From: Giardia intestinalis
Lineage: Eukaryota
Length of the DNA: 64,000 nucleotides
Direction: 5' to 3' (one strand)
Assembly: GCA_000002435.2 (NCBI GenBank)
Contig: CM018789.1
Shown: one piece after another, positions 9,549 through 24,100 of the stretch
Position numbering within the stretch: the stretch's first letter is position 1
Layout: every line of letters starts with the position of its first letter
The notes under the pieces: generated by a model
What the model was told of the DNA's origin: nothing
Database searches by the model: none
The model's input: the letters and a program-made list of their open reading frames with translations, nothing else
Program-made: the position numbers and the translations under genes

Positions 9549-9970
9549 ATATATTTGATTCGTAATTACATGACTCGTGTATTATGAGAAGGGCACATTA
9601 ATTGGTCAGTTCATAGCAAGGGACTGCACCAGCTTGCTATCACTGTGGTGAATGAACTTCAAAAAATCACTTTGGTTGGACTGTTTAAACTATGTACCAC
9701 ACGTAGACGATAAACTTACGAGAAAGCTATGCTGCTGCGCCACGTGTGGTACCCAGCCTAGTACCCCGGGGGACGGTGCCCGGGTGCGCCCATCGCCGCC
9801 TGGCCACGGACTGCTCCAGCCACTACAGAGCCAGGCAAGCCAGGCATCTGGCCCTGCTGAGAGCGCGCTCGGCTGTCTCTGCAGGCCTCAGTGGAAGGGA
9901 CACGGGTGCCCGCTGCTTGTCGGCATTCCGGTGCCACCCCGGGGAGCTGCCACAAGGATCGTCTTGACGC

Positions 9971-9985
9971 GTTTACTATCTAAGT
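9971..9985 (-). terminator. VSP-type extended polyadenylation signal (ACTTAGATAGTAAAC)
   Basis: Minus-strand sequence 13 nt downstream of the VSP stop matches the conserved Giardia VSP 3' motif ACTYAGRTAGTRAAY, which contains the general poly(A) signal AGTRAAY. Confidence 0.75.
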
Positions 9986-9997
9986 ACACAGCTAAGT

Positions 9998-12900
9998 CTA
10001 CGCCTTCCCGCGGCAGAGGAACCACCAACACAAGAAGCCAACAAGACCACCTACAACGATGACAGCAGCCACTGCGATACCTGCGATGGCGCCTGTAGAA
10101 AGGCCGCTACTCTTGTTTGTGTTGGGAATCACGCACGCGTCGCCCTGGAGCTGGTAGCCATTACCATCGTCGCACTTGCAGGCCTTCGCCGAGCCGGCAG
10201 CCGGGTCTATTACCTCTTCCGGGGCAGTGCAGGCGGCCTTGCAGCTCTTCTTGTTGGCCGCGACGTATTGCGCTTTATCCTTGCATGTAAGACAGGTTTC
10301 CCCGCCGCTCAAGTCGCACGTCTCGCACCCGGCCCCTTCCAGCGTCGGGCACGCGTTGGCCTGTCCCTTGACGCACGCGTCGCCCTGGAGCTGGTAGCCA
10401 TTACCATCGTCGCACTTGCAGGCCTTCGCCGAGCCGGCAGCCGGGTCTATTACCTCTTCCGGGGCAGTGCAGGCGGCCTTGCAGCTCTTCTTGTTGGCCG
10501 CGACGTATTGCGCTTTATCCTTGCATGTAAGACAGGTTTCCCCGCCGCTCAAGTCGCACGTCTCGCACCCGGCCCCTTCCAGCGTCGGGCACGCGTTGGC
10601 CTGTCCCTTGACGCACGCGTCGCCCTGGAGCTGGTAGCCATTACCATCGTCGCACTTGCAGGCCTTCGCCGAGCCGGCAGCCGGGTCTATTACCTCTTCC
10701 GGGGCAGTGCAGGCGGCCTTGCAGCTCTTCTTGTTGGCCGCGACGTATTGCGCTTTATCCTTGCATGTAAGACAGGTTTCCCCGCCGCTCAAGTCGCACG
10801 TCTCGCACCCGGCCCCTTCCAGCGTCGGGCACGCGTTGGCCTGTCCCTTGACGCACGCGTCGCCCTGGAGCTGGTAGCCATTACCATCGTCGCACTTGCA
10901 GGCCTTCGCCGAGCCGGCAGCCGGGTCTATTACCTCTTCCGGGGCAGTGCAGGCGGCCTTGCAGCTCTTCTTGTTGGCCGCGACGTATTGCGCTTTATCC
11001 TTGCATGTAAGACAGGTTTCCCCGCCGCTCAAGTCGCACGTCTCGCACCCGGCCCCTTCCAGCGTCGGGCACGCGTTGGCCTGTCCCTTGACGCACGCGT
11101 CGCCCTGGAGCTGGTAGCCATTACCATCGTCGCACTTGCAGGCCTTCGCCGAGCCGGCAGCCGGGTCTATTACCTCTTCCGGGGCAGTGCAGGCGGCCTT
11201 GCAGCTCTTCTTGTTGGCCGCGACGTATTGCGCTTTATCCTTGCATGTAAGACAGGTTTCCCCGCCGCTCAAGTCGCACGTCTCGCACCCGGCCCCTTCC
11301 AGCGTCGGGCACGCGTTGGCCTGTCCCTTGACGCACGCGTCGCCCTGGAGCTGGTAGCCATTACCATCGTCGCACTTGCAGGCCTTCGCCGAGCCGGCAG
11401 CCGGGTCTATTACCTCTTCCGGGGCAGTGCAGGCGGCCTTGCAGCTCTTCTTGTTGGCCGCGACGTATTGCGCTTTATCCTTGCATGTAAGACAGGTTTC
11501 CCCGCCGCTCAAGTCGCACGTCTCGCACCCGGCCCCTTCCAGCGTCGGGCACGCGTTGGCCTGTCCCTTGACGCACGCGTCGCCCTGGAGCTGGTAGCCA
11601 TTACCATCGTCGCACTTGCAGGCCTTCGCCGAGCCGGCAGCCGGGTCTATTACCTCTTCCGGGGCAGTGCAGGCGGCCTTGCAGCTCTTCTTGTTGGCCG
11701 CGACGTATTGCGCTTTATCCTTGCATGTAAGACAGGTTTCCCCGCCGCTCAAGTCGCACGTCTCGCACCCGGCCCCTTCCAGCGTCGGGCACGCGTTGGC
11801 CTGTCCCTTGACGCACGCGTCGCCCTGGAGCTGGTAGCCATTACCATCGTCGCACTTGCAGGCCTTCGCCGAGCCGGCAGCCGGGTCTATTACCTCTTCC
11901 GGGGCAGTGCAGGCGGCCTTGCAGCTCTTCTTGTTGGCCGCGACGTATTGCGCTTTATCCTTGCATGTAAGACAGGTTTCCCCGCCGCTCAAGTCGCACG
12001 TCTCGCACCCGGCCCCTTCCAGCGTCGGGCACGCGTTGGCCTGTCCCTTGACGCACGCGTCGCCCTGGAGCTGGTAGCCATTACCATCGTCGCACTTGCA
12101 GGCCTTCGCCGAGCCGGCAGCCGGGTCTATTACCTCTTCCGGGGCAGTGCAGGCGGCCTTGCAGCTCTTCTTGTTGGCCGCGACGTATTGCGCTTTATCC
12201 TTGCATGTAAGACAGGTTTCCCCGCCGCTCAAGTCGCACGTCTCGCACCCGGCCCCTTCCAGCGTCGGGCACGCGTTGGCCTGTCCCTTGACGCACGCGT
12301 CGCCCTGGAGCTGGTAGCCATTACCATCGTCGCACTTGCAGGCCTTCGCCGAGCCGGCAGCCGGGTCTATTACCTCTTCCGGGGCAGTGCAGGCGGCCTT
12401 GCAGCTCTTCTTGTTGGCCGCGACGTATTGCGCTTTATCCTTGCATGTAAGACAGGTTTCCCCGCCGCTCAAGTCGCACGTCTCGCACCCGGCCCCTTCC
12501 AGCGTCGGGCACGCGTTGGCCTGTCCCTTGACGCACGCGTCGCCCTGGAGCTGGTAGCCATTACCATCGTCGCACTTGCAGGCCTTCGCCGAGCCGGCAG
12601 CCGGGTCTATTACCTCTTCCGGGGCAGTGCAGGCGGCCTTGCAGCTCTTCTTGTTGGCCGCGACGTATTGCGCTTTATCCTTGCATGTAAGACAGGTTTC
12701 CCCGCCGCTCAAGTCGCACGTCTCGCACCCGGCCCCTTCCAGCGTCGGGCACGCGTTGGCCTGTCCCTTGACGCACGCGTCGCCCTGGAGCTGGTAGCCA
12801 TTACCATCGTCGCACTTGCAGGCCTTCGCCGAGCCGGCAGCCGGGTCTATTACCTCTTCCGGGGCAGTGCAGGCGGCCTTGCAGCTCTTCTTGTTGGCCG

Positions 12901-15847
12901 CGACGTATTGCGCTTTATCCTTGCATGTAAGACAGGTTTCCCCGCCGCTCAAGTCGCACGTCTCGCACCCGGCCCCTTCCAGCGTCGGGCACGCGTTGGC
13001 CTGTCCCTTGACGCACGCGTCGCCCTGGAGCTGGTAGCCATTACCATCGTCGCACTTGCAGGCCTTCGCCGAGCCGGCAGCCGGGTCTATTACCTCTTCC
13101 GGGGCAGTGCAGGCGGCCTTGCAGCTCTTCTTGTTGGCCGCGACGTATTGCGCTTTATCCTTGCATGTAAGACAGGTTTCCCCGCCGCTCAAGTCGCACG
13201 TCTCGCACCCGGCCCCTTCCAGCGTCGGGCACGCGTTGGCCTGTCCCTTGACGCACGCGTCGCCCTGGAGCTGGTAGCCATTACCATCGTCGCACTTGCA
13301 GGCCTTCGCCGAGCCGGCAGCCGGGTCTATTACCTCTTCCGGGGCAGTGCAGGCGGCCTTGCAGCTCTTCTTGTTGGCCGCGACGTATTGCGCTTTATCC
13401 TTGCATGTAAGACAGGTTTCCCCGCCGCTCAAGTCGCACGTCTCGCACCCGGCCCCTTCCAGCGTCGGGCACGCGTTGGCCTGTCCCTTGACGCACGCGT
13501 CGCCCTGGAGCTGGTAGCCATTACCATCGTCGCACTTGCAGGCCTTCGCCGAGCCGGCAGCCGGGTCTATTACCTCTTCCGGGGCAGTGCAGGCGGCCTT
13601 GCAGCTCTTCTTGTTGGCCGCGACGTATTGCGCTTTATCCTTGCATGTAAGACAGGTTTCCCCGCCGCTCAAGTCGCACGTCTCGCACCCGGCCCCTTCC
13701 AGCGTCGGGCACGCGTTGGCCTGTCCCTTGACGCACGCGTCGCCCTGGAGCTGGTAGCCATTACCATCGTCGCACTTGCAGGCCTTCGCCGAGCCGGCAG
13801 CCGGGTCTATTACCTCTTCCGGGGCAGTGCAGGCGGCCTTGCAGCTCTTCTTGTTGGCCGCGACGTATTGCGCTTTATCCTTGCATGTAAGACAGGTTTC
13901 CCCGCCGCTCAAGTCGCACGTCTCGCACCCGGCCCCTTCCAGCGTCGGGCACGCGTTGGCCTGTCCCTTGACGCACGCGTCGCCCTGGAGCTGGTAGCCA
14001 TTACCATCGTCGCACTTGCAGGCCTTCGCCGAGCCGGCAGCCGGGTCTATTACCTCTTCCGGGGCAGTGCAGGCGGCCTTGCAGCTCTTCTTGTTGGCCG
14101 CGACGTATTGCGCTTTATCCTTGCATGTAAGACAGGTTTCCCCGCCGCTCAAGTCGCACGTCTCGCACCCGGCCCCTTCCAGCGTCGGGCACGCGTTGGC
14201 CTGTCCCTTGACGCACGCGTCGCCCTGGAGCTGGTAGCCATTACCATCGTCGCACTTGCAGGCCTTCGCCGAGCCGGCAGCCGGGTCTATTACCTCTTCC
14301 GGGGCAGTGCAGGCGGCCTTGCAGCTCTTCTTGTTGGCCGCGACGTATTGCGCTTTATCCTTGCATGTAAGACAGGTTTCCCCGCCGCTCAAGTCGCACG
14401 TCTCGCACCCGGCCCCTTCCAGCGTCGGGCACGCGTTGGCCTGTCCCTTGACGCACGCGTCGCCCTGGAGCTGGTAGCCATTACCATCGTCGCACTTGCA
14501 GGCCTTCGCCGAGCCGGCAGCCGGGTCTATTACCTCTTCCGGGGCAGTGCAGGCGGCCTTGCAGCTCTTCTTGTTGGCCGCGACGTATTGCGCTTTATCC
14601 TTGCATGTAAGACAGGTTTCCCCGCCGCCGTCCGCCCCCCCCCCCCGGCCCGGCCTGTCCTGACAGGTCGCCACGGTCCTTCCATCGGCACCACCCGCCG
14701 GCCGGCACCTCTTCCCAGGGCCGGCTCCGGGCCGCGACGTATGCGCCGCTGTGCGCCCCCGCTCAGTCCACGCTTGGACGCACGCGTCGCCCTGGAGCTG
14801 GTAGCCATTACCATCGTCGCACTTGCAGGCCTTCGCCGAGCCGGCAGCCGGGTCTATTACCTCTTCCGGGGCAGTGCAGGCGGCCTTGCAGCTCTTCTTG
14901 TTGGCCGCGACGTATTGCGCTTTATCCTTGCATGTAAGACAGGTTTCCCCGCCGCTCAAGTCGCACGTCTCGCACCCGGCCCCTTCCAGCGTCGGGCACG
15001 CGTTGGCCTGTCCCTTGACGCACGCGTCGCCCTGGAGCTGGTAGCCATTACCATCGTCGCACTTGCAGGCCTTCGCCGAGCCGGCAGCCGGGTCTATTAC
15101 CTCTTCCGGGGCAGTGCAGGCGGCCTTGCAGCTCTTCTTGTTGGCCGCGACGTATTGCGCTTTATCCTTGCATGTAAGACAGGTTTCCCCGCCGCTCAAG
15201 TCGCACGTCTCGCACCCGGCCCCTTCCAGCGTCGGGCACGCGTTGGCCTGTCCCTTGACGCACGCGTCGCCCTGGAGCTGGTAGCCATTACCATCGTCGC
15301 ACTTGCAGGCCTTCGCCGAGCCGGCAGCCGGGTCTATTACCTCTTCCGGGGCAGTGCAGGCGGCCTTGCAGCTCTTCTTGTTGGCCGCGACGTATTGCGC
15401 TTTATCCTTGCATGTAAGACAGGTTTCCCCGCCGCTCAAGTCGCACGTCTCGCACCCGGCCCCTTCCAGCGTCGGGCACGCGTTGGCCTGTCCCTTGACG
15501 CACGCGTCGCCCTGGAGCTGGTAGCCATTACCATCGTCGCACTTGCAGGCCTTCGCCGAGCCGGCAGCCGGGTCTATTACCTCTTCCGGGGCAGTGCAGG
15601 CGGCCTTGCAGCTCTTCTTGTTGGCCGCGACGTATTGCGCTTTATCCTTGCATGTAAGACAGGTTTCCCCGCCGCTCAAGTCGCACGTCTCGCACCCGGC
15701 CCCTTCCAGCGTCGGGCACGCGTTGGCCTGTCCCTTGACGCACGCGTCGCCCTGGAGCTGGTAGCCATTACCATCGTCGCACTGCGCGGTCTTCTCGTTG
15801 TGCTTTGCCAGCACTGTTACACAAACTAGGAGAAATCCTACCAACAT
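9998..15847 (-). CDS. vsp: Variant-specific surface protein (VSP) with ~23 tandem 80-aa cysteine-rich repeats, ~1949 aa
   Basis: C-terminus '...[31 protein letters not shown]' (TM helix plus invariant CRGKA tail). Body rich in CXXC (CETC, CLTC). Signal peptide '[14 protein letters not shown]'. The track ORF begins at GTG 15868; first ATG is 7 codons in (15847). VSP poly(A) motif follows the stop. Confidence 0.92.
10131..15783. repeat. 240-bp tandem repeat array (~23 units) inside the VSP coding region
   Basis: Identical 73-aa antisense ORFs recur every 240 bp from 10176 to 14256 and 14823 to 15543, so units appear 100% identical. Unit encodes '[80 protein letters not shown]'. Confidence 0.95.
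14629..14776. repeat. Aberrant repeat unit: ~148-bp GC-rich segment with a poly-C tract replacing 61 bp of the canonical unit (net +87 bp, in frame)
   Basis: After 'ggtttccccgccgc' the unit diverges into 'cgtccgcccccccccccggcccggcctgtcctgacagg...' and rejoins at 'gacgcacgcgtcgccctggag'. It encodes the G/R/A-rich '[52 protein letters not shown]' and lacks the Cys pattern. Confidence 0.8.
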
Positions 15848-16059
15848 TAGCCGGAGTACACGTGCCACTGCTCTTCTGTCAGACTTGTGTGTTGCCGCGA
15901 GCAGTGAGAGACAGCCGCTCTCGCTCTTCCTGATCAGTTAGACTGGAGAAGGACGAGATGATAGCATGCCCATCGAAGGCCAGCTGATAGTGCGGTTCCC
16001 CCTGGCTTCAATAGAAACAGGACCAGTGAGGGCCAGGCTCAGATCGCACCTCTCTTGTG

Positions 16060-16136
16060 GAATGATCGTTCGGGGTGCACTCTTGTACATTGCTGTCAGT
16101 ATGTTTGTCGGCTTCCTTTGCAGAGGTAAGGTGTAG
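16060..16136 (+). pseudogene. VSP C-terminal relic (TM + 'CRGKV*' tail fragment)
   Basis: Plus-strand frame reads '...VRGALLYIAVSMFVGFLCRGKV*' ending at TAG 16134-16136, followed by 'atttaaatagcaaac', a degenerate VSP poly(A) motif. The open frame upstream (from 15942) has no CXXC content, so only the tail survives. Confidence 0.6.
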
Positions 16137-19100
16137 ATTTAAATAGCAAACGCGTCCCTTGTACAACCTGCTCTCCCCATCAGGCACGGACTCCGAGATC
16201 TCTGTGCATGCGGGACCAAGAAATCCTAAGTGAGCAGCGATGCTCCTCCTGCTCCAGTAGCCCAGCCGCTAGCAGCTCCTCTCCAGGCTCCTTTGCTCCC
16301 TGGCCACAGCCTTCTGTGCTCTCTTGCAGTCCCTAGAGGAGATACCGGGTCCGTGGAAGTGCGGACCAACAGAGGTAAGCCCATGAGACGCTCTCGCCTG
16401 GTGTGTGCATAGCTCTGATCTTGTGTACTAAATGCTACTAAGGCTCCCCATCGCATAACAAGGTGCCAGGTGGGGTTCGGAAGGCAGCCAGCCCTCCCAG
16501 ATCTGGACAGGAGGGAAGCACTGCCCAAAGCGTGCTGCCTCCTGAGTTGATAGGCCGGGACTCCTGTTACCCCAGATCATCATAGTGCTACCGCTGTTCA
16601 CTATGGAGGCACTCTGACCCACAGTGCCTGAGGTTGTTGGTGCAGGCGGCAAAGGGCTCTTCATAGTGGGCTACCATCAGTGGAAGGAACGGGAGCCTGG
16701 GTGTCTTGTCCTTCTGCCAGTGGTTGGCCGGGCTCATGATCAGCACCCTTTGCTGTGGGTACTGGGGTGGCGGAAGTTCCCACTTGCTGACAAGGAGCCG
16801 GGCGATGCTCGCTTGTCATCGTCAACCCGGACTGGGCTGGTCCTGGGCAGATAGACAGTGAGTACGGGGATCCCGTCCCCCGTCGTAAACCACGCCACAC
16901 GGAGAGGGTGTGGTAGCTCGATGCATTTTCCTACGTTACACGACGCAAAGAAGAACGGCCTTTTGATGCGTAGCTCTGGAAGCCTGCAGAGCCCAACCGA
17001 GGGGACTACATCCTGGTGTTGACTTCTGATACGGTTCGGTAGAGGCCAGCTCGATGCTCGCAAGCTTGTGGGAAGCACCAGGGCCGGCACATGCACCTGG
17101 ACAGCAACGCAGGCACACATCTCGGATGCAACTCCGCTGAGGATCTTGCGAGGGGTCGGCTTGGGTCAGTGGTGGAAGGACTTTGCGCAAGCGCTCCATG
17201 CATCAGGGGCCCCTCGAGACCACAAAAGCTCGGCGGCGCTGGCGCACATGTGGACGCGAGACGGTGGGAAAGAGCTGCGTGGTGACTTATAGATGGAAAG
17301 GCTGGGCGCGCATAACAATACGCCCAGGAGAGCTATGCACAGCGCAGTGGCCCGGCTGGCTCCTCTTGTAATACGGAGCATCGGCTGCGGGCATGTGCTC
17401 TTGAAGAGTGGGGGCATCCAGATGAGTAGTGCAGACGTGAGTGAATTGACGGCGCTCAGAGTATGCATCGGGTGGACAAGTAGGGGACAAGAGCTTATGG
17501 CACCACCTGGTCGACGGATGGCTCAAGATGTGTAAGGTACAGCAATCATTCGACCAAAGGTGATGATTGCCCGACAGATGCCAGAGCAGCTGTGTAGATT
17601 GGGCCCTGGTGGTGGTTTGCCACAGGAGGACGCAGGCAGTATGTTTGGATAATAGATACGCTGACTGCCACCGGTTTGCACAATACACCTCTACAATCGA
17701 TCATCTCACCGTGTGTGAGGAGGAGATGAGGCTCCTCGACTTCAGAAAAAGTGGACCTTCAGTAAACTCTGCTCTGCTGCAAATGCATAAAATCAAAAAC
17801 CAGCCTCCAACTCATCTGCAAGTTCTACGGCCTTTCCACGCTTAGGAGCCGAGGAGGCACTACAGGTGTCCCTGCTGTAATCCGGGCTAATGGCTAGTCT
17901 CTGTAGCCCCAGCCCTACCCCGCCAGCCCGCCGGGCACATCTACACTTTCTGTGCGAACCGACTCTCTAGGAACCGTCATGCACAGATAGTCTTCCGAGT
18001 ACTTAGAAGACACCATCCTCTGCTGAGGCGTGTCATCAAGGGCCAAGCACTAAGGCGAGGATGGCCAGAGACAGACCCCTCGCAGTTCTGTTCAACATTA
18101 GCAGCGAGCATGCAAACGAGTGTGCGGTCTTGACGTGCACTGTGATCCAGGTGCCCGGCAGACTGGGCCCATAGCAGCTGGTGCGCAGGCCCCGTCGCTA
18201 GCCTGTGCACAAGCCGTGGTCCACCTCGAAGGACAGCGGAGGATTCTGCGACCCCTTCTGGGTGTACAGCCGTCACTATGGAGCGCGGCGAACAGGCATC
18301 TGCACAGAGGTCGCGGGCTCGCTTAGAGGCGTGTAGACAGCCGACGCCCCGCCTTGTTGCAATGAGAGCTCTGAGATCAGGCAGCCGCTCCACCCATCGG
18401 CCATCATGTGAATATACATGCACCGTCCGAGAAGACCACTACAGTGCCTAGACGACACTATAAGCGTATGCGCCCCCCGCTATAATAAACAAGTGGCAGA
18501 CAGACCAGCAGCGGAAGCAGCAGGGGTATGCCGAGCCGGTGTAGGGCGCATGGTTAGAACCACAGCTCTCTGGGACAATGACAGTACACTGCTCGAACAC
18601 CCCGTTGCATCCGTCCGTGCTATTCGTAGGCTGCAGCGCCTGGCAGGCCCGCAACTAGCACAGCGCGCCCCCAAGCCGCGCACCCAGCATGCAGGGCCAG
18701 GACGGCTGACCCTGTGCGAAGAGGCGCCCTCCCAGGAAGACGACAGTCGCCATCGCTGCCCAAGTTTTTTAGCATTCAAACGCGGGCCCGATGGTCACGC
18801 TGGCTTCCCTGGCTTTTGCACTGCCTGTCGAGCCTGGCTTCTGACCGGCCTGGGATGGCTGACGGGAGCGTGCAGGTCGGCGCCCTGGTTGCCGGGCCCA
18901 GCCTTCCATCCGCACTTGATGCTGAGCGATAACCCGAGCGGCGCAGGTGGTCTTCTTCGCTCTACATGCAGTGAGCTGCCTGGACGGATGCACGACCGGC
19001 CGTCTGCCTCTGCTCTGCTTCTGGCCACCAGGAGGCGCTGGCTCGAGTGCGTGCCACGGGGCGCTGCCCGCGATGACAGGGGCAGCGCATCACTTCTCGG

Positions 19101-19838
19101 GCCTTCCGGTCCATCAGCAGGTGATCCTCAGAGCGCACTTGGAGCCCGGACAGACACACCAGCACGGACCCAGCCACCTTGCGATGCCGCGATCTACCAC
19201 GGACACTGCAGCCTCCGCAATCATCCACTCTGCCTGTCTTTTGCTTAAGAAAAGAGACACTGTATTTAGCAGCCCCCGTGACTTACCGCAACGGGCCAGT
19301 TTCCCAGCATCTTGCCGGATGCCTCCCTTGCACCGCACTGCCCTATTCTTCCCTGCGACAGAAAGAGCTCTGGGGCCCTGGCCCAGACGGAGCCCATTCC
19401 CATAACCTTGCTGCACTCCCCGTCAGGCCCGTCATCACAGAGCACACGCGCACAGGGTCATCCACGCTGCATCACCCTGGGCCTCGTCACCGAGGTAGCC
19501 CCAGCTGGCAGGCCAGACGCCTATGGGCTCACAAGCCCCGCCTCCTGCATGCTCTAGAGACGGCCGGTGCCCTGTCCCGTCGCCTGGCGCGCCGTCGGGT
19601 TCCATCAAGCGCGGCTGAAGAGGCCCGGGCCATAACACTGCCGAAGCCACTGCATTGTCACCAGCAATCAGGTGCACCTCATTTCTCAGGAAATCTTTCT
19701 CTGCCCTAAAAAACGTCTGCTGCCCGATAATTCTGGTAATTACTACGATTGCTTCTGAGACCAAAACGACCTGTGTGTACAGCCGAAGGCATCTAATAGA
19801 GAAAGAATCCCCTAATAAATTAAATTTACCCTGAATTT
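16137..19838. other. ~3.7 kb GC-rich region without credible coding potential (gene desert / degenerate sequence)
   Basis: Only short overlapping ORFs (60-276 aa) in all six frames, with R/A/P/G-rich low-complexity translations. Base composition is visibly GC-richer than flanking genes. No start context or domain is recognisable. Confidence 0.6.
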
Positions 19839-21167
19839 ATGATTGATGTTTTTGTAGATGTTCTTGGCAAACTAGCTGCAGACGGAATCTACAACAAAGC
19901 CATCGATCCAGCTATTGCATTTTCAACGTTCTATACCATATTAACAGATCAACAATTAGTCGGGAACATCCTTTCTCTTTATTTCCACAAACACCCCCAG
20001 CACCCCACAAAAACAGCCATTTTCTGTCTTTGTGAAGAACTATTCGGTGAGAAGGTCGCCACCAACCTAGTTAAAAGCTGGCCTATAGCGTCTTCTAAGG
20101 TCGCGGACCTGGCTGAGCGTCTTCACGCCAGGATCTGTGTAGGCAATACACCTATTTTAAACACAAACACACAGCCAAATGCACGGCAAGGAGCACTCCT
20201 CTGGCGCACTGACGAGTCTCCTACCTTGAGCCATCTTAAACGGCAGCTTGATGAATTGTTAGAATGTTGTAACAGCCCCAAAGATGCTGCACAACAGGTC
20301 TCCTTTCAATCAATCTTGCCAGTAATCAAAGACATGGCAGAGACAATTGCTAGACTATCCACGGAATGGCATGAACAGAGTAGAGCCGCTCTAACGGAAA
20401 AAGACGCTCAAATCAAAGACCTGAAGCATCGCATCTGCGAGTTGGAGGCAGGCCTATCGGACATGTGCGTTAAGATAGAAGTCTATATGGGACAGATGGA
20501 GGCATATTCTCATGAAATGGCCGCCAAGAATGAGCAAATTCTCATCCTGCATCAACAGCTAAAGGAGGTACGGACCGAGTCTAGTGATCGCGAGCTAAAT
20601 GCACTGAAGGAGCTACTGAACGAGAAGGATTGTCTGATAACAAACATTCGCGCAGATCTAACGGAATCCACGACCACTGCTGATCGCCTGGCGCACGAGT
20701 GTATACACCTGAATCAAAGAAGCGAGGAATTATCTCTTTACAAATCTCTGGTTGCTAATACAATAGATGCCTTGAAAACCCTATCAGAAAGAGATGCAGA
20801 ACTATCATACTCACCTCCGGCGGACGATACCTATCTGAGGCTTCCGGAATACGTTGCGTTTGTTATAGATGTAATCCGGACAAAAGCCCACTGGCTTGTG
20901 ACAGAAGAACCTGGCCAGAGTCTCCCCCTTCCATCGCAAGATACAAGCCCGTTGCTTCACTCCGTTCGTGGGGGATCAGTGGCGCCCTCGGTAGTTGAGT
21001 CTACAACAGCGGCAAATAATTCTTCTCTAGCACCAGATAGCAGCCACCTCAACCCACCCTATTCCTACCGTTCAGCTAGCAATTCCAGCAGCAGTATACT
21101 AGGAAGATTGGCAATGATTGGAAGAGATAAGGATGACGTCAGATCTCATCCACGAGGAGCTCAATAG
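19839..21167 (+). CDS. Hypothetical coiled-coil protein, 442 aa
   Basis: ATG with strongly AT-rich 5' context ('cctaataaattaaatttaccctgaatttATG'). Central heptad-rich region ('KDAQIKDLKHRICELEAGL', 'NEQILILHQQLKEVR'). Confidence 0.65.
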   Translation: MIDVFVDVLGKLAADGIYNKAIDPAIAFSTFYTILTDQQLVGNILSLYFHKHPQHPTKTAIFCLCEELFGEKVATNLVKSWPIASSKVADLAERLHARICVGNTPILNTNTQPNARQGALLWRTDESPTLSHLKRQLDELLECCNSPKDAAQQVSFQSILPVIKDMAETIARLSTEWHEQSRAALTEKDAQIKDLKHRICELEAGLSDMCVKIEVYMGQMEAYSHEMAAKNEQILILHQQLKEVRTESSDRELNALKELLNEKDCLITNIRADLTESTTTADRLAHECIHLNQRSEELSLYKSLVANTIDALKTLSERDAELSYSPPADDTYLRLPEYVAFVIDVIRTKAHWLVTEEPGQSLPLPSQDTSPLLHSVRGGSVAPSVVESTTAANNSSLAPDSSHLNPPYSYRSASNSSSSILGRLAMIGRDKDDVRSHPRGAQ

Positions 21168-24100
21168 TACAAGCAGACCTAGGAAGCAATCTACGAGTGT
21201 CATCTATATTGCAGTCCCTGCTTTTCACAATAATAACCAAATCCTCTAGAGTTGATGGGCATCCAAGCTTATTAAACTGCCCAACCGTCATAAACTTCAC
21301 GGGAATACGCGCCATAACTTGGGAAACGAACGGCTTCATTGTTGTCACTAAATAACTCAGGTTCCTCTTCGCTTCCGAGGCGAACTTCAACGCTATCTTA
21401 GACGGCTTTTTATCAGCATAATCCTTCTCTGTCGTTTCCTTTATAAGTTCTAAGTATTTCCACGTTCCACCGACCAAGCGGCCTGTAGATGTTTGCTTCC
21501 TCTCACTCACATCTGCCTTAATGATCTTCTCATTCAGTTTCTCAAGAAGGACTTTACCGAAGTTCGGATCTATAAGGGACAGAATAACATGGAAAACTTT
21601 GATAAGAAAATGCTCTTTAGGTCCAATTCCATCGAAGACATCTGTTATACAGGCCAAGTTAGCCCCTAGTTGCTCACACATTCGCAAAATCTCATATGAT
21701 AATTCGCTATAGTGAACCACAAAGAAATTTGGACTGTCTGCCAATATCCATAAGGATGGTGGGACAGAGTCTGGCACCGAGGACGCTTCACATCCGGCCA
21801 TACACTCGTCGAAGGCCGCTCTCAGTGGAGCAGTCAGAGTAAGCTTATTGAAGATATCTTTACCAGGCCTGAAAATACTCTTCATGGCGCATTGACAAAT
21901 TATCTTTGAAAGATCTGCAATCCCATGTTCTTGGAGGCGGATTCGTAGATAGCGTTCCTCTGAATAGATCGAGCACACGGACCTGTTCATCTCCAGGCCC
22001 TTCAATTCAGACTCACTGTAGACCTTGCTGCCAGAAGAGACAAAGGAAATGGATGCTCCGCTGCCAGATGGAGCATTAGAAATAAAGAAGTGTCCACTGG
22101 ACTGGAGCATAGAGATAATATCTTTGTTACTTGAGCACAGCCTGTCTAAAATAGCATTTCTAAACTGGAAGAGATCCAGACCCTTGTCTTCTTGGGCAAG
22201 GTGAACAAGACGCTTGAAGAATATATTGTGAAAGTCAGTGAGAGGGGCCACCAACTGCCTCGTATCTTTGAGGTTATTTTGCACCTTATCTCTCCCATGA
22301 TAAATTGCCTCTTGAATTCTACAAAATTTGCACTTATCCAAGTTATAGTAAGATCTGCCGTTGCAGACCATTTCTAAAGAGCCTGTATCGGGAACAAAGT
22401 CGCCGAACAAGGAATGTGAGGCTGCATGTTCAACTGAAGAGGCAAAGACGGTCACTTCGTTGATTCTAGAAGAGAGCAAATCTGAGTCTTCGTCAGTCAT
22501 GAGTGCTATTAGCGCAGAGTCTGTCAAGTAAAAAACAGAATGGGCATCGGTGAAGATGAGGGATCCGTCCTTCTCTCTTGTAAAGAGAAGCGCCAGCCCA
22601 TACCTGCTTGGTGAGCAAATGCCCTGCAGCTTTGCCAAATCCAGTGGTGACTGTATAAGAGCTGAAGCTACGGAATCTGTGTGCAGATCCCCGACCTGAA
22701 GAAGGAATATCCCCGTAGAGATACAAGAGACTTTAGCAATACGTTTCAACGATGATCTGATGTCCGGTATCATTAGATAGTTGCGAATGGCCTGAGTAAT
22801 ATACCATTCTGGACTATTTCTATAAACGCCTCCTATGTAGCTGCGTTTAATCATTGAGTTTCTTGTCTTCAGTGCCGAATGGGCCGGAAGCCTGTACGCC
22901 TCCATCACTGATGCCATATCCTTATACGTCTGAGAGGAGTATGAACATATATCCTGAAGCGTGCGATATAAGATATCGTACTTGCTCTCAAATAAGGTAG
23001 TTTGCTTGGAATATTCGCTTTCAGGCCACAGTGCGTCGACACTCGCCGGATTCTCCTCTAAGAACTTCCGAAATATCTCAGTAAGGAGGCTGGCTTTCTC
23101 AGTGACCACTTCAAGGACGGTTTGATCCACCGACGTGTCAGCTTTCGCCTTGGCAGCACTCTTAGCACTCTCAGGAGGATCAGACTGAAAACAAGCATCC
23201 ACAGGACACGCTGTGAACATTAAAGTAGCCTCCTTCGGAGCCTTCTGAGATACAATATTGGTAGTAAATTGCAAGTTCTGGACGGGCTGCTCTAGCAACT
23301 GCGTAGTGACAGATATGTGGCGTTCAGTGCGGCGATAATACATAGCGTCTATCTCTGTGATGGTTGATAAGAAGAAAGATGACACGACCGAGTGAATATA
23401 ATCTGTCTTGCTCTTATCCTTCACGGAAATGATATCGTCCAACGTTTTACGTAAGAGTGTCATAAAATCCTCCGTTTCTGTTTGCAGACCAAACGCATTG
23501 CATACTATCTGCAGCACATCATCGTGGTTAAGAAACATATATGTCTCTCGGTATATCTCATGATCTTCTGGGCCAACAGAGGGAATATAGACTGAGGTTG
23601 CCCGTAGAAGGAACACAACATACTCAAGACCGGTGAGAAAGAGATACATGACATCCGAATGCATGTAGTAATAGTGTTCCGAAAACATGTCAATAGGAGA
23701 CCTAACAGAGCCAGCGTTACACCCATTTGCAATGGCCAGAGAAAGAGATCGATAGACCGGGTCACTAAGCGTTAAGTTGTGCATGCCGAGAGCCGCCAAA
23801 AACCCTGCCTCAATCCTGGTATGTTGAACAGTCAAGTTAACGAACTTGGAGAAAAAGTCCATGAAGTATTGCTCGTCCCCTTCCAGAAGTTTAGATGCCA
23901 ATTCCTGAGCAGAACTGGAAAGCACAAGCTCATCATCTGTATCGCCCATGGGCTCCAAATCCACATCGTCAATGCTGTCAATTTGGCCATGGAAGAACAC
24001 CGTCATAAAGCAAAGGTCCAACAACTTTTGGCTTGTAGCCATTATTGTTTGACAGTACTTTCTTGTAATATCCGTATAAATTGTCGAATACGAATTGGGA

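What the first reader, a model, noticed from the sequence alone, without database searches (positions are those of the whole stretch)
15942..16136. Vestigial VSP C-terminus ('...GALLYIAVSMFVGFLCRGKV*') in divergent orientation just upstream of the big VSP
About 200 bp from the VSP 5' end, on the opposite strand, an open frame terminates with a hydrophobic TM-like stretch plus 'CRGKV' and a TAG. A degenerate copy of the VSP poly(A) motif ('tagatttaaatagcaaac') follows. CRGKA is essentially invariant in functional VSPs. A tail fragment with no cysteine-rich body is best explained as a relic of an ancestral VSP truncated by recombination. Such relics mark VSP loci as recombinationally active and may serve as substrates for generating VSP diversity.
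Basis: partly seen in the sequence, partly recalled or inferred. Interest (0 to 1): 0.55.

Follow-up and report, generated by a model that had tools for sequence, protein, structure and literature searches.

The report
Leftover tail of a dead VSP gene
About 240-310 bases upstream of a large Giardia surface-antigen (VSP) gene, on the opposite strand, lies a roughly 70-base leftover of another VSP gene's 3' end; such dead VSP fragments are common in this parasite, so the find is real but ordinary.

Summary
Window 15966-16136 (+) is a 56-codon ORF ending ...VGFLCRGKV*, followed at once by a degenerate copy of the VSP poly(A) motif.

The window is Giardia intestinalis WB. The neighbouring gene is VSP GL50803_0050391.

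At protein level the match is not significant: no Pfam VSP hit, and a custom VSP-tail HMM gives 7.7 bits, E=0.33.

At DNA level the homology is clear. A profile of real VSP 3' ends hits 16111-16157 at E=4e-8. Allowing the 15-nt WWFxC slippage deletion, it hits 16088-16157 at E=6e-11. The 17 nt after the stop match the published VSP-specific poly(A) signal at 14/17 positions in WB and 15/17 in isolate DH. The chance expectation for this combination is about 1.5e-5 per window.

The ORF itself is an accident. In DH the ATG is lost, a 1-bp deletion breaks the frame, and the region diverges faster than the flanking non-coding DNA.

Nothing VSP-like is detectable upstream of 16088.

Verdict: an apparently unannotated VSP pseudogene fragment, which is a known kind of feature. 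How it was truncated, and any role in generating diversity, are unproven.

One curiosity: a second, unrelated VSP locus carries a similar divergent tail relic about 320 nt upstream of its start codon.

The parts
15942..16136 (+). The ATG-initiated ORF is 15966-16136 (56 aa).
   Evidence: The exact protein is absent from the 15-billion-protein collection. In DH the ATG is ACA and there is a 1-bp deletion near window 16097.
15848..16087 (.). Spacer between the VSP start codon and the relic. It includes the N-terminal two thirds of the ORF and has no detectable VSP ancestry.
   Evidence: Local alignment of 16000-16087 to the VSP transmembrane-coding region gives P=0.6. There is one Cys and no CXXC motif. 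WB-DH divergence here is 15.6-17%.
16088..16136 (+). Last 15 codons plus stop of a former VSP gene: IAVSMFVGFLCRGKV*. It aligns in frame to [11 protein letters not shown][WWFLC]RGKA*, with the 15-nt WWFxC block missing.
   Evidence: nhmmer with the deletion-adjusted VSP 3' profile hits 16088-16157 at 38.5 bits, E=5.9e-11. The unadjusted profile hits 16111-16157 at 29.0 bits, E=3.9e-8.
16137..16153 (+). Degenerate VSP extended polyadenylation signal, ATTTAAATAGCAAACGC (14/17 to ACTTAGRTAGTRAAYRY). The hexamer AGTAAA is mutated to AGCAAA in WB and intact in DH.
   Evidence: The consensus and its near-exclusive association with VSPs and pVSPs come from bioRxiv 10.1101/2022.03.07.483299 section 1.7.
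16088..16157 (+). The whole demonstrable relic (core).
   Evidence: It is 37-41 of 51 nt identical to four real VSP 3' ends, which are 41-47 of 52 identical to each other.
9998..15847 (-). Neighbouring intact VSP GL50803_0050391 (1949 aa, about 23 repeats of 80 aa). It is context, not part of the relic.
   Evidence: Its own perfect extended poly(A) signal is at 9969-9985.
16158..19838 (.). GC-rich (58-66%) stretch of 3.7 kb with no protein-coding gene, lying downstream of the relic up to GL50803_00113616. It is context.
   Evidence: It is 94-95% identical in DH, 65-72% identical over parts in P15, and absent from two more distant lineages.

Best explanation
Window 16088-16157 is a non-functional fragment of a VSP gene's 3' end, a VSP pseudogene relic. 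It holds the last 15 codons of the membrane anchor and cytoplasmic tail, the stop codon, and the VSP-family extended poly(A) signal.

Shown:
- It is homologous to VSP 3' ends at DNA level.
- The five codons WWFxC are missing. They lie between two TTCCTCTGC direct repeats, so replication slippage is a natural cause. The same deletion is seen in two other degenerate VSP fragments.
- The final Ala codon GCG has become GTG.
- The 56-codon ORF is not conserved in the A2 isolate DH.
- The relic predates the A1/A2 split.

Inferred:
- The rest of the ancestral gene was removed by a deletion or rearrangement that left its tail 240 nt from the start of VSP GL50803_0050391.
- The most economical scenario is loss of most of one member of a head-to-head VSP pair, a known arrangement in this genome.
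- The present ORF arose when unrelated upstream sequence happened to stay open into the old reading frame.
- The fragment now drifts neutrally.
For: Homology to VSP 3' ends:
- nhmmer with a profile of three real VSP 3' ends gives window 16111-16157 at E=3.9e-8 and the DH copy at E=4.8e-9.
- With the 15-nt deletion allowed, 16088-16157 gives E=5.9e-11, in frame.
- blastn to the P15 VSP end matches 36/44 nt, E=1e-5.

Poly(A) signal and chance:
- The extended poly(A) signal matches 14/17 in WB and 15/17 in DH, where 0.10 such hits are expected per locus.
- That motif is reported to be associated with VSPs or pVSPs in 323 of 327 genome hits.
- The joint chance expectation is 1.5e-5.

Non-function:
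- In DH the ATG is ACA and a 1-bp deletion shifts the frame to ...GCTPVHCCGIFVGFLCRGKV*.
- WB-DH divergence is 15.6% in the ORF's N-terminal part. In the relic it is 8 substitutions plus 1 indel in 70 nt. Neighbouring non-coding DNA shows 4.5-5.6%, and gene 113616 shows 1.0%.
- No protein is annotated between KAE8301612 and KAE8301613.

Known precedents:
- Truncated ATG-less vsp pseudogenes and variant tails such as CRGKL (PMC2996952).
- Hundreds of pVSPs and unannotated intergenic VSP-like pieces (preprint).
- The same GFLC-RGKA deletion occurs in the DH fragment P0088 and in the L010 relic.
Against: - Protein-level evidence is weak: no Pfam VSP hit and a custom tail HMM E=0.33.
- Only about 50-70 nt are demonstrably VSP-derived.
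- The deletion-adjusted profile was built after seeing the candidate, so its E-value is optimistic. The unadjusted E=3.9e-8 stands on its own.
- The relic is no closer to the adjacent VSP's tail (37/51) than to other VSP tails (up to 40/51). A local inverted-pair origin therefore has no direct support.
- In P15 only a 15-nt poly(A)-signal-like remnant is found at the syntenic place (P about 0.01).
- A similar relic with similar geometry at a second locus is not predicted by purely random decay.
Confidence: 0.85

Rival explanations
1. The sequence is retained for an RNA-level role. Its poly(A) signal could terminate divergent (sterile) transcripts from the bidirectional VSP promoter. Alternatively, transcripts through it could carry the family-wide conserved VSP 3' sequence and feed small-RNA silencing of VSPs.
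For: - A second VSP locus has a tail relic in the same divergent orientation. Its former stop is 317 nt (DH) and 320 nt (P15) from the VSP ATG, against 288 nt here.
- That second relic is conserved across assemblages A2 and E, and the poly(A) signal is still perfect (17/17) in P15.
- At the window's own locus, P15 keeps an AGTAAAC-containing 15-mer.
- From my own knowledge of the literature, not checked here: Giardia promoters are bidirectional, and VSP expression involves small RNAs.
Against: - The hexamer is mutated in WB (AGCAAA) and in the DH copy of the second locus (TGTAAA).
- The relic evolves at least as fast as the surrounding non-coding DNA.
- No RNA structure signal was found on either strand (z = -0.94 and +0.32).
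- Two other VSP loci (three VSP genes) lack such a relic.
- No expression data were available.
Confidence: 0.07
2. The relic derives not from a VSP proper but from one of the few cysteine-rich membrane protein (CRMP/HCMP) genes that carry a VSP-like tail and a VSP-like extended poly(A) signal.
For: The preprint reports 4 CRMPs with a similar extended poly(A) signal and CRGKA-like tails, including one reading ...*FLCRGK.... The relic keeps no body by which the two families could be told apart.
Against: 323 of 327 motif hits are VSPs or pVSPs. The relic aligns in frame to the VSP anchor VGFLC...RGKA and sits next to a VSP.
Confidence: 0.05
3. The 56-aa ORF is a real gene for a small tail-anchored membrane protein with a VSP-like CRGKV cytoplasmic tail.
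For: In WB there is an ATG, an uninterrupted frame, a hydrophobic stretch and 4 of 5 tail residues.
Against: - The start codon and frame are lost in DH, and there is no ORF in P15.
- Divergence is high.
- There is no Inr-type start context or signal peptide.
- It is not annotated and is absent from the protein collections.
Confidence: 0.02
4. The resemblance to a VSP tail is chance.
For: The protein-profile score is at noise level (7.7 bits; the next chance hits score 6.9 and 6.4). The poly(A)-signal pattern with up to 3 mismatches is expected 1.8 times per window.
Against: Joint expectation is 1.5e-5. nhmmer gives E=3.9e-8. The DH copy is an even better match.
Confidence: 0.01

Closest known systems
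Truncated, ATG-less vsp pseudogenes of Giardia WB (e.g. 'vsp14', 224 bp; Adam et al. 2010, PMC2996952) and the pVSP class of the 2022 cysteine-rich-family preprint (10.1101/2022.03.07.483299)
   Same: They are fragments recognised only by the conserved VSP 3' end. They have no signal peptide or full body, lie at VSP loci, and carry the extended poly(A) signal. Variant pentapeptides (CRGKL, CRSKA and others) are documented.
   Different: This one is much shorter (about 70 nt recognisable, against at least 224 nt). It is more degenerate: it lacks WWFxC, has Ala changed to Val, and its poly(A) signal matches 14/17. It falls below protein-level detection and appears not to be annotated.
Isolated 112-aa VSP fragment DHA2 (P0088, L016 3001-3339, AHGT01000047.1)
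   Same: It has the same 15-nt deletion giving ...GFLCRGKA, an AGR arginine codon, and a degenerate extended poly(A) signal.
   Different: It keeps a 112-codon ORF with a cysteine-rich portion and passes Pfam VSP. It lies among housekeeping genes rather than head-to-head with a VSP.
Orphan VSP-tail relic upstream of the 127/128-aa VSP (L010 9657-9717 in DH; L017 8399-8445 in P15)
   Same: - It is divergent from a VSP gene.
- Its former stop lies 317-320 nt from the ATG, against 288 nt here.
- Only about 45-60 nt are recognisable.
- It has the same WWFxC deletion.
- It is old enough to be shared by assemblages A2 and E.
   Different: It is at an unrelated locus. The spacer and outer flank are not alignable with the window's (P about 0.24 and 0.22). 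It has a frameshift inside CRGKA in DH, and its poly(A) signal is perfect in P15.
Head-to-head / tail-to-tail inverted VSP pairs separated by 2-4 kb of non-coding DNA (PMC2996952)
   Same: A VSP lies head-to-head with VSP-derived sequence, with a multi-kb stretch free of annotated proteins alongside.
   Different: Here one partner is reduced to its last 70 nt and lies only 240 nt from the intact gene's ATG. The tail is not especially similar to the neighbour's tail.

Membership tests
Functional VSP gene (Pfam PF03302; criteria of PMC2996952 and 10.1101/2022.03.07.483299) | N-terminal signal peptide and cysteine-rich body with multiple CXXC motifs | tested here: not met
   The 48 residues before the hydrophobic stretch contain one Cys and no CXXC. 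Only 240 nt separate the relic from the neighbouring VSP's ATG. Pfam VSP gives no hit.
Functional VSP gene (Pfam PF03302; criteria of PMC2996952 and 10.1101/2022.03.07.483299) | Conserved C-terminal region of about 38 aa with a membrane anchor of about 23-25 aa | tested here: not met
   Only the last 15 codons align, and only after allowing a 5-codon deletion. Real 30-aa and 40-aa tails score 54 and 74 bits in Pfam, while the candidate gives no hit. The custom HMM gives E=0.33.
Functional VSP gene (Pfam PF03302; criteria of PMC2996952 and 10.1101/2022.03.07.483299) | C-terminal pentapeptide CRGKA (at least 3 of 5 residues by the 2010 criterion) | tested here: met
   CRGKV matches 4 of 5 residues and is directly followed by TAG.
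Functional VSP gene (Pfam PF03302; criteria of PMC2996952 and 10.1101/2022.03.07.483299) | Extended poly(A) signal ACUUAGRUAGURAAYRY within 28 nt of the stop | tested here: inconclusive
   It is in the right place (it starts at the first nt after the stop) but degenerate: 14/17 in WB with the hexamer mutated, and 15/17 in DH with the hexamer intact. This is good evidence of ancestry but not an exact motif match.
Functional VSP gene (Pfam PF03302; criteria of PMC2996952 and 10.1101/2022.03.07.483299) | Initiator/Kozak-like PyAATGTT at the start codon | tested here: not met
   The ORF start context is GCATGCC. The neighbouring VSP has TAATGTT.
VSP pseudogene / fragment (pVSP) | Significant sequence similarity to VSP genes | tested here: met
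   Met at DNA level: nhmmer E=3.9e-8 and 5.9e-11 and blastn E=1e-5. The preprint's own criterion, BLASTx E<1e-4 to VSP proteins, is not met. With the default settings (low-complexity filter off) the tail gives no hit at E<=1. With composition-based statistics off and word size 2, the best tail hit is E=0.07.
VSP pseudogene / fragment (pVSP) | Lacks the features needed for a functional VSP and is not maintained as a coding sequence | tested here: met
   It has no signal peptide and no body. The ATG and frame are lost in DH. Divergence is at or above the neutral neighbours.
CRMP/HCMP (cysteine-rich membrane proteins) | CXC/CXXC-rich body with a non-CRGKA tail and, usually, an ordinary poly(A) signal | not testable with these tools
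   No body remains. The tail and poly(A) signal are of the VSP type, but 4 CRMPs are reported to share these. The full WB gene set could not be searched.

The most novel reading that the evidence does not exclude
A divergently oriented VSP 3'-end relic (tail codons plus extended poly(A) signal) about 290-320 nt upstream of a VSP start codon may be a recurrent, long-lived module rather than random debris.

It was seen at 2 of 4 independent VSP loci examined. Both copies carry the same WWFxC deletion. The second-locus relic demonstrably predates the A/E split; for the window's relic only the A1/A2 split is shown, with a possible remnant in P15. The spacers of the two loci are unalignable, which argues for independent origin or for maintenance.

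The module could mark a stereotyped mechanism by which VSP loci form. It could also act at RNA level, by polyadenylating divergent promoter transcripts or by supplying RNA with the family-wide conserved 3' sequence to the VSP silencing pathway.
Probability: 0.07. Interest if true: 0.55.

Novelty: new member of a known kind. Interest (0 to 1): 0.2.

Why it matters
It matters little by itself. It adds one very short, apparently unannotated item to the already long list of VSP pseudogene fragments in Giardia WB.

It also gives a practical lesson. Relics this small escape protein-based annotation, including Pfam and the BLASTx route used in published surveys. They are easily caught by a DNA profile spanning the last VSP codons plus the extended poly(A) signal.

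If the recurrence of the same geometry at other VSP loci held genome-wide, it would bear on how VSP loci are built and possibly on how divergent transcription there is handled.

Tried and rejected
Searches that returned nothing:
- Phage DNA search, which is irrelevant for a eukaryote.
- Exact and word-based protein look-ups of the ORF.
- Rfam on 15800-19900.
- Pfam on ten ORFs of the 4-kb stretch without annotated proteins.
- Self-repeats of that stretch within the window.

Tests for VSP or retrotransposon ancestry of 15848-19838:
- blastx and tblastx gave only a weak E=0.006-0.018 hit at 17386-17553 on the minus strand.
- There is no excess of Cys or CXXC.
- I rejected a VSP or retrotransposon origin for this region as unsupported.

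Extension of the relic upstream into the full anchor ('GALLYIAV' against 'GAIAGIAV'): the DNA alignment gives P=0.6, so this stays only a possibility.

Local inverted-duplication origin: the relic is not closer to the adjacent VSP's tail than to other VSP tails.

Database limits:
- Look-ups of WB VSP fragments P0003 and P0006 failed; the new WB assembly appears not to be indexed.
- A JGI metagenome scan with the VSP tail found no Giardia.
- The preprint's supplementary tables did not contain the relic sequence. However, their nucleotide fields are truncated and table S7 was cut when stored, so lack of annotation is not proven.

RNA hairpin or miRNA-precursor idea: folding gives z-scores at background level.

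Full report
**What is in the sequence**

On the plus strand the frame is open from 15942, with an ATG at 15966 and a TAG at 16134-16136. The product is MPIEGQLIVRFPLASIETGPVRARLRSHLSCGMIVRGALLYIAVSMFVGFLCRGKV*. The large minus-strand gene next to it (9998-15847) is a VSP. It matches Pfam PF03302 at E=1e-22, has about 23 repeats of 80 aa, and ends ...[16 protein letters not shown]. Its start codon sits in a TAATGTT initiator. The ORF's stop lies 288 nt from that ATG, pointing away from it.

**Where the window comes from**

Exact look-ups place the window in Giardia intestinalis WB clone C6, in the current reference assembly. Cathepsin B is KAE8301611. The VSP is KAE8301612, also XP_037901615 and GL50803_0050391, on NC_051856.1. 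GL50803_00113616 is KAE8301613. The protein accessions are consecutive, so no protein is annotated between the VSP and 113616. A pseudogene feature cannot be excluded with these tools. The 56-aa product is not in the 15-billion-protein collection.

**Is it more than chance?**

*Protein level.* By this measure it is not.
- Pfam VSP gives 54 bits for a genuine 30-aa tail and 74 bits for a 40-aa tail. It gives nothing for the candidate even at E<=10.
- I built an HMM from 75 distinct VSP tails and ran it with filters off against all 1898 six-frame segments of the window. The candidate scored 7.7 bits, E=0.33. It ranked second after the real VSP (82 bits) but barely above chance hits of 6.9 and 6.4 bits.

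*DNA level.* Here the picture changes.
- The real VSP reads TTCCTCTGCCGCGGGAAGGCGTAG...ACTTAGATAGTAAACGCGTC.
- The candidate reads TTCCTTTGCAGAGGTAAGGTGTAGATTTAAATAGCAAACGCGTC.
- VSP genes carry a family-specific extended poly(A) signal, ACUUAGRUAGURAAYRY, a median of 6 nt after the stop. It is reported in all 136 VSPs, and 323 of 327 genome hits are VSPs or VSP pseudogenes (bioRxiv 10.1101/2022.03.07.483299).
- The 17 nt directly after the candidate's stop match this signal at 14/17 positions.
- CRGKx-stop is expected 0.034 times per shuffled window. Combined with the density of such poly(A)-signal matches, the joint expectation is 1.5e-5.
- An nhmmer profile of three real VSP 3' ends (WB, P15, DH) hits window 16111-16157 at 29.0 bits, E=3.9e-8.
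- blastn against the P15 VSP end matches 36/44 nt, E=1e-5.

*The WWFxC deletion.* VSP tails contain two TTCCTCTGC repeats 15 nt apart. One of the 88 VSP fragments retrieved, P0088, ends ...GGLIGFLCRGKA and so lacks the intervening WWFxC. With that 15-nt block removed from the profile, the hit extends to 16088-16157 (38.5 bits, E=5.9e-11). It is ungapped and in frame: IAVSMFVGFLCRGKV* against [15 protein letters not shown]. That model was adjusted after seeing the candidate, so I rely mainly on the unadjusted E-value.

*Upstream limit.* Upstream of 16088 there is no DNA similarity to the VSP anchor region (P=0.6). There is also no cysteine-rich signal.

**Comparison with other isolates**

*DH, assemblage A2.* The DH contig AHGT01000036.1 (L005) is collinear with window 15820-22000 at 94.6% identity.
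- The relic is present there and matches VSP 3' ends slightly better: 32.0 bits (E=4.8e-9), or 41.2 bits (E=8.4e-12) with the deletion-adjusted profile.
- Its poly(A) signal, ATTTAGACAGTAAACGC, matches 15/17 with the AGTAAA hexamer intact.
- The ORF is destroyed. ATG is ACA, and a 1-bp deletion near window 16097 changes the reading to ...GCTPVHCCGIFVGFLCRGKV*.

*WB-DH divergence.*

| Region | Divergence |
|---|---|
| 15848-15965 | 17% |
| 15966-16087 | 15.6% |
| Relic 16088-16157 | 8 substitutions + 1 indel in 70 nt |
| 16158-16400 | 4.5% |
| 16400-19838 | 5.6% |
| Gene 113616 | 1.0% |

There is therefore no purifying selection on the ORF or the relic. WB and DH have each degraded different poly(A)-signal positions, as expected for drift.

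*P15, assemblage E (L012).* The order cathepsin B, VSP, gene-free stretch, 113616 is kept. The syntenic place shows only a 15-nt TTAAATAGTAAACGC, 138 nt from the VSP ATG (P about 0.01). This is a possible last remnant.

*More distant lineages.* Two more distant lineages lack cathepsin B, the VSP and the gene-free stretch altogether (L014 and L015). No assemblage shows a full VSP in the relic's place.

**Interpretation**

The core at 16088-16157 is a VSP pseudogene fragment. The 56-codon ORF is a WB-specific accident in which unrelated upstream sequence stays open into the old frame.

- The missing WWFxC block fits slippage between the direct repeats.
- GCG to GTG explains Ala to Val.
- AGA for Arg is unremarkable, because the DH orthologue of the neighbouring VSP and P0088 both use AGG.

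How the body was lost is not shown. Because only 240 nt separate the relic from the intact VSP's ATG, a deletion or rearrangement must have removed it. Head-to-head VSP pairs are a known arrangement (PMC2996952), which makes loss of most of one partner the simplest scenario. However, the relic is no closer to the neighbour's tail than to other tails (37/51 against up to 40/51).

The neighbouring VSP itself evolves very fast: its repeats are only 35-46% identical in amino acids between WB and DH. The locus is clearly dynamic. Even so, a 50-70-nt fragment at 72-80% identity is an unlikely substrate for generating diversity.

**Comparison with what is known**

Truncated, ATG-less vsp pseudogenes recognised by their conserved 3' ends have been described, as have variant tails such as CRGKL and CRSKA (PMC2996952). 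Hundreds of pVSPs, plus unannotated intergenic VSP-like pieces, are also on record (preprint).

This relic is a shorter, more decayed and apparently unannotated member of that class. It fails the tests for a functional VSP: it has no signal peptide, no body, no full anchor and no initiator. It meets the DNA-homology test for a VSP-derived fragment.

**An unexplained extra**

I scanned all fetched loci with the same DNA profile and found a second orphan tail relic.
- In DH it lies at L010 9657-9717 (E=2e-6 with the plain profile, about 1e-8 with the deletion-adjusted one). The P15 orthologue lies at L017 8399-8445 (E=4e-5).
- It is again divergent from a VSP gene. Its former stop lies 317-320 nt from the ATG, and it again lacks WWFxC.
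- In P15 its coding part has decayed to FPCRKEA*, but its poly(A) signal is a perfect 17/17.
- The spacers and outer flanks of the two loci are not alignable (P about 0.24 and 0.22).
- Two other VSP loci (L016 and L018, three genes) have no such relic.

Two loci out of four is too few to generalise. Still, the shared geometry is not predicted by random decay and deserves a genome-wide count. No RNA structure signal was found at the window's relic.

**Verdict**

The claims about recombination and diversity are unproven. This is a new member of a well-known kind, and its interest is low.

Noticed in passing
L010 9657-9717 (-), L011 1852-1912 (-), L017 8399-8445 (-): A second orphan VSP 3'-end relic at an unrelated locus. 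It is divergent from a 127/128-aa VSP, with its former stop 317-320 nt upstream of the ATG. It has the same WWFxC deletion and is shared by DH (A2) and P15 (E). The extended poly(A) signal is perfect in P15.
   Followed up: partly
window 16158-19838: A 3.7-kb GC-rich (58-66%) stretch with no annotated protein, no Pfam or Rfam hit and no repeat within the window. It is 94-95% identical in DH and 65-72% identical over parts in P15. Together with cathepsin B and the VSP, it is absent from two more distant Giardia lineages (L014, L015). Its origin is unknown.
   Followed up: partly
window 14629-14776: Inside the otherwise perfect 240-nt VSP repeat array, 61 nt of one unit are replaced by an unrelated 148-nt GC-rich segment containing a run of 12 C. 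The frame is kept (+87 nt). It could be a real insertion or a long-read consensus artefact.
   Followed up: partly
window 10268-15829 (+): An 1853-codon open frame runs antisense through the whole VSP repeat array. It is a mechanical consequence of a stop-free repeat unit and is not evidence of a gene.
   Followed up: no
window ~19561 (L001-L003 ends): The three short-read (Logan) contigs fetched that carry GL50803_00113616 all stop 26-278 nt upstream of the gene, two of them at the same point 278 nt upstream; a further 20 places were listed as similar but not fetched. One 2.7-kb contig (L004) crosses that point. This suggests a branch from heterozygosity or a repeat there.
   Followed up: no
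window 9969-10000 (-); L005 9550-9580: The intact VSP's 3' UTR carries a 12-nt partial duplication of the poly(A) signal (ACTTAGCTGTGT before ACTTAGATAGTAAAC) in WB and DH, but not in the P15 VSP at the same locus.
   Followed up: no
window 15820-16150 versus L005: WB-DH divergence is 12-17% from the VSP 5' end through the relic. It drops to 2-5% right after the relic's poly(A) signal. The fast-evolving block therefore ends at about the relic's 3' edge.
   Followed up: partly
L016 3001-3339 (DH AHGT01000047.1): An isolated 112-aa VSP fragment sits between a RING/ankyrin gene and a WD40 gene, far from any other VSP in the 6.3-kb locus fetched. Its tail is GFLCRGKA and its poly(A) signal is degenerate.
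   Followed up: partly
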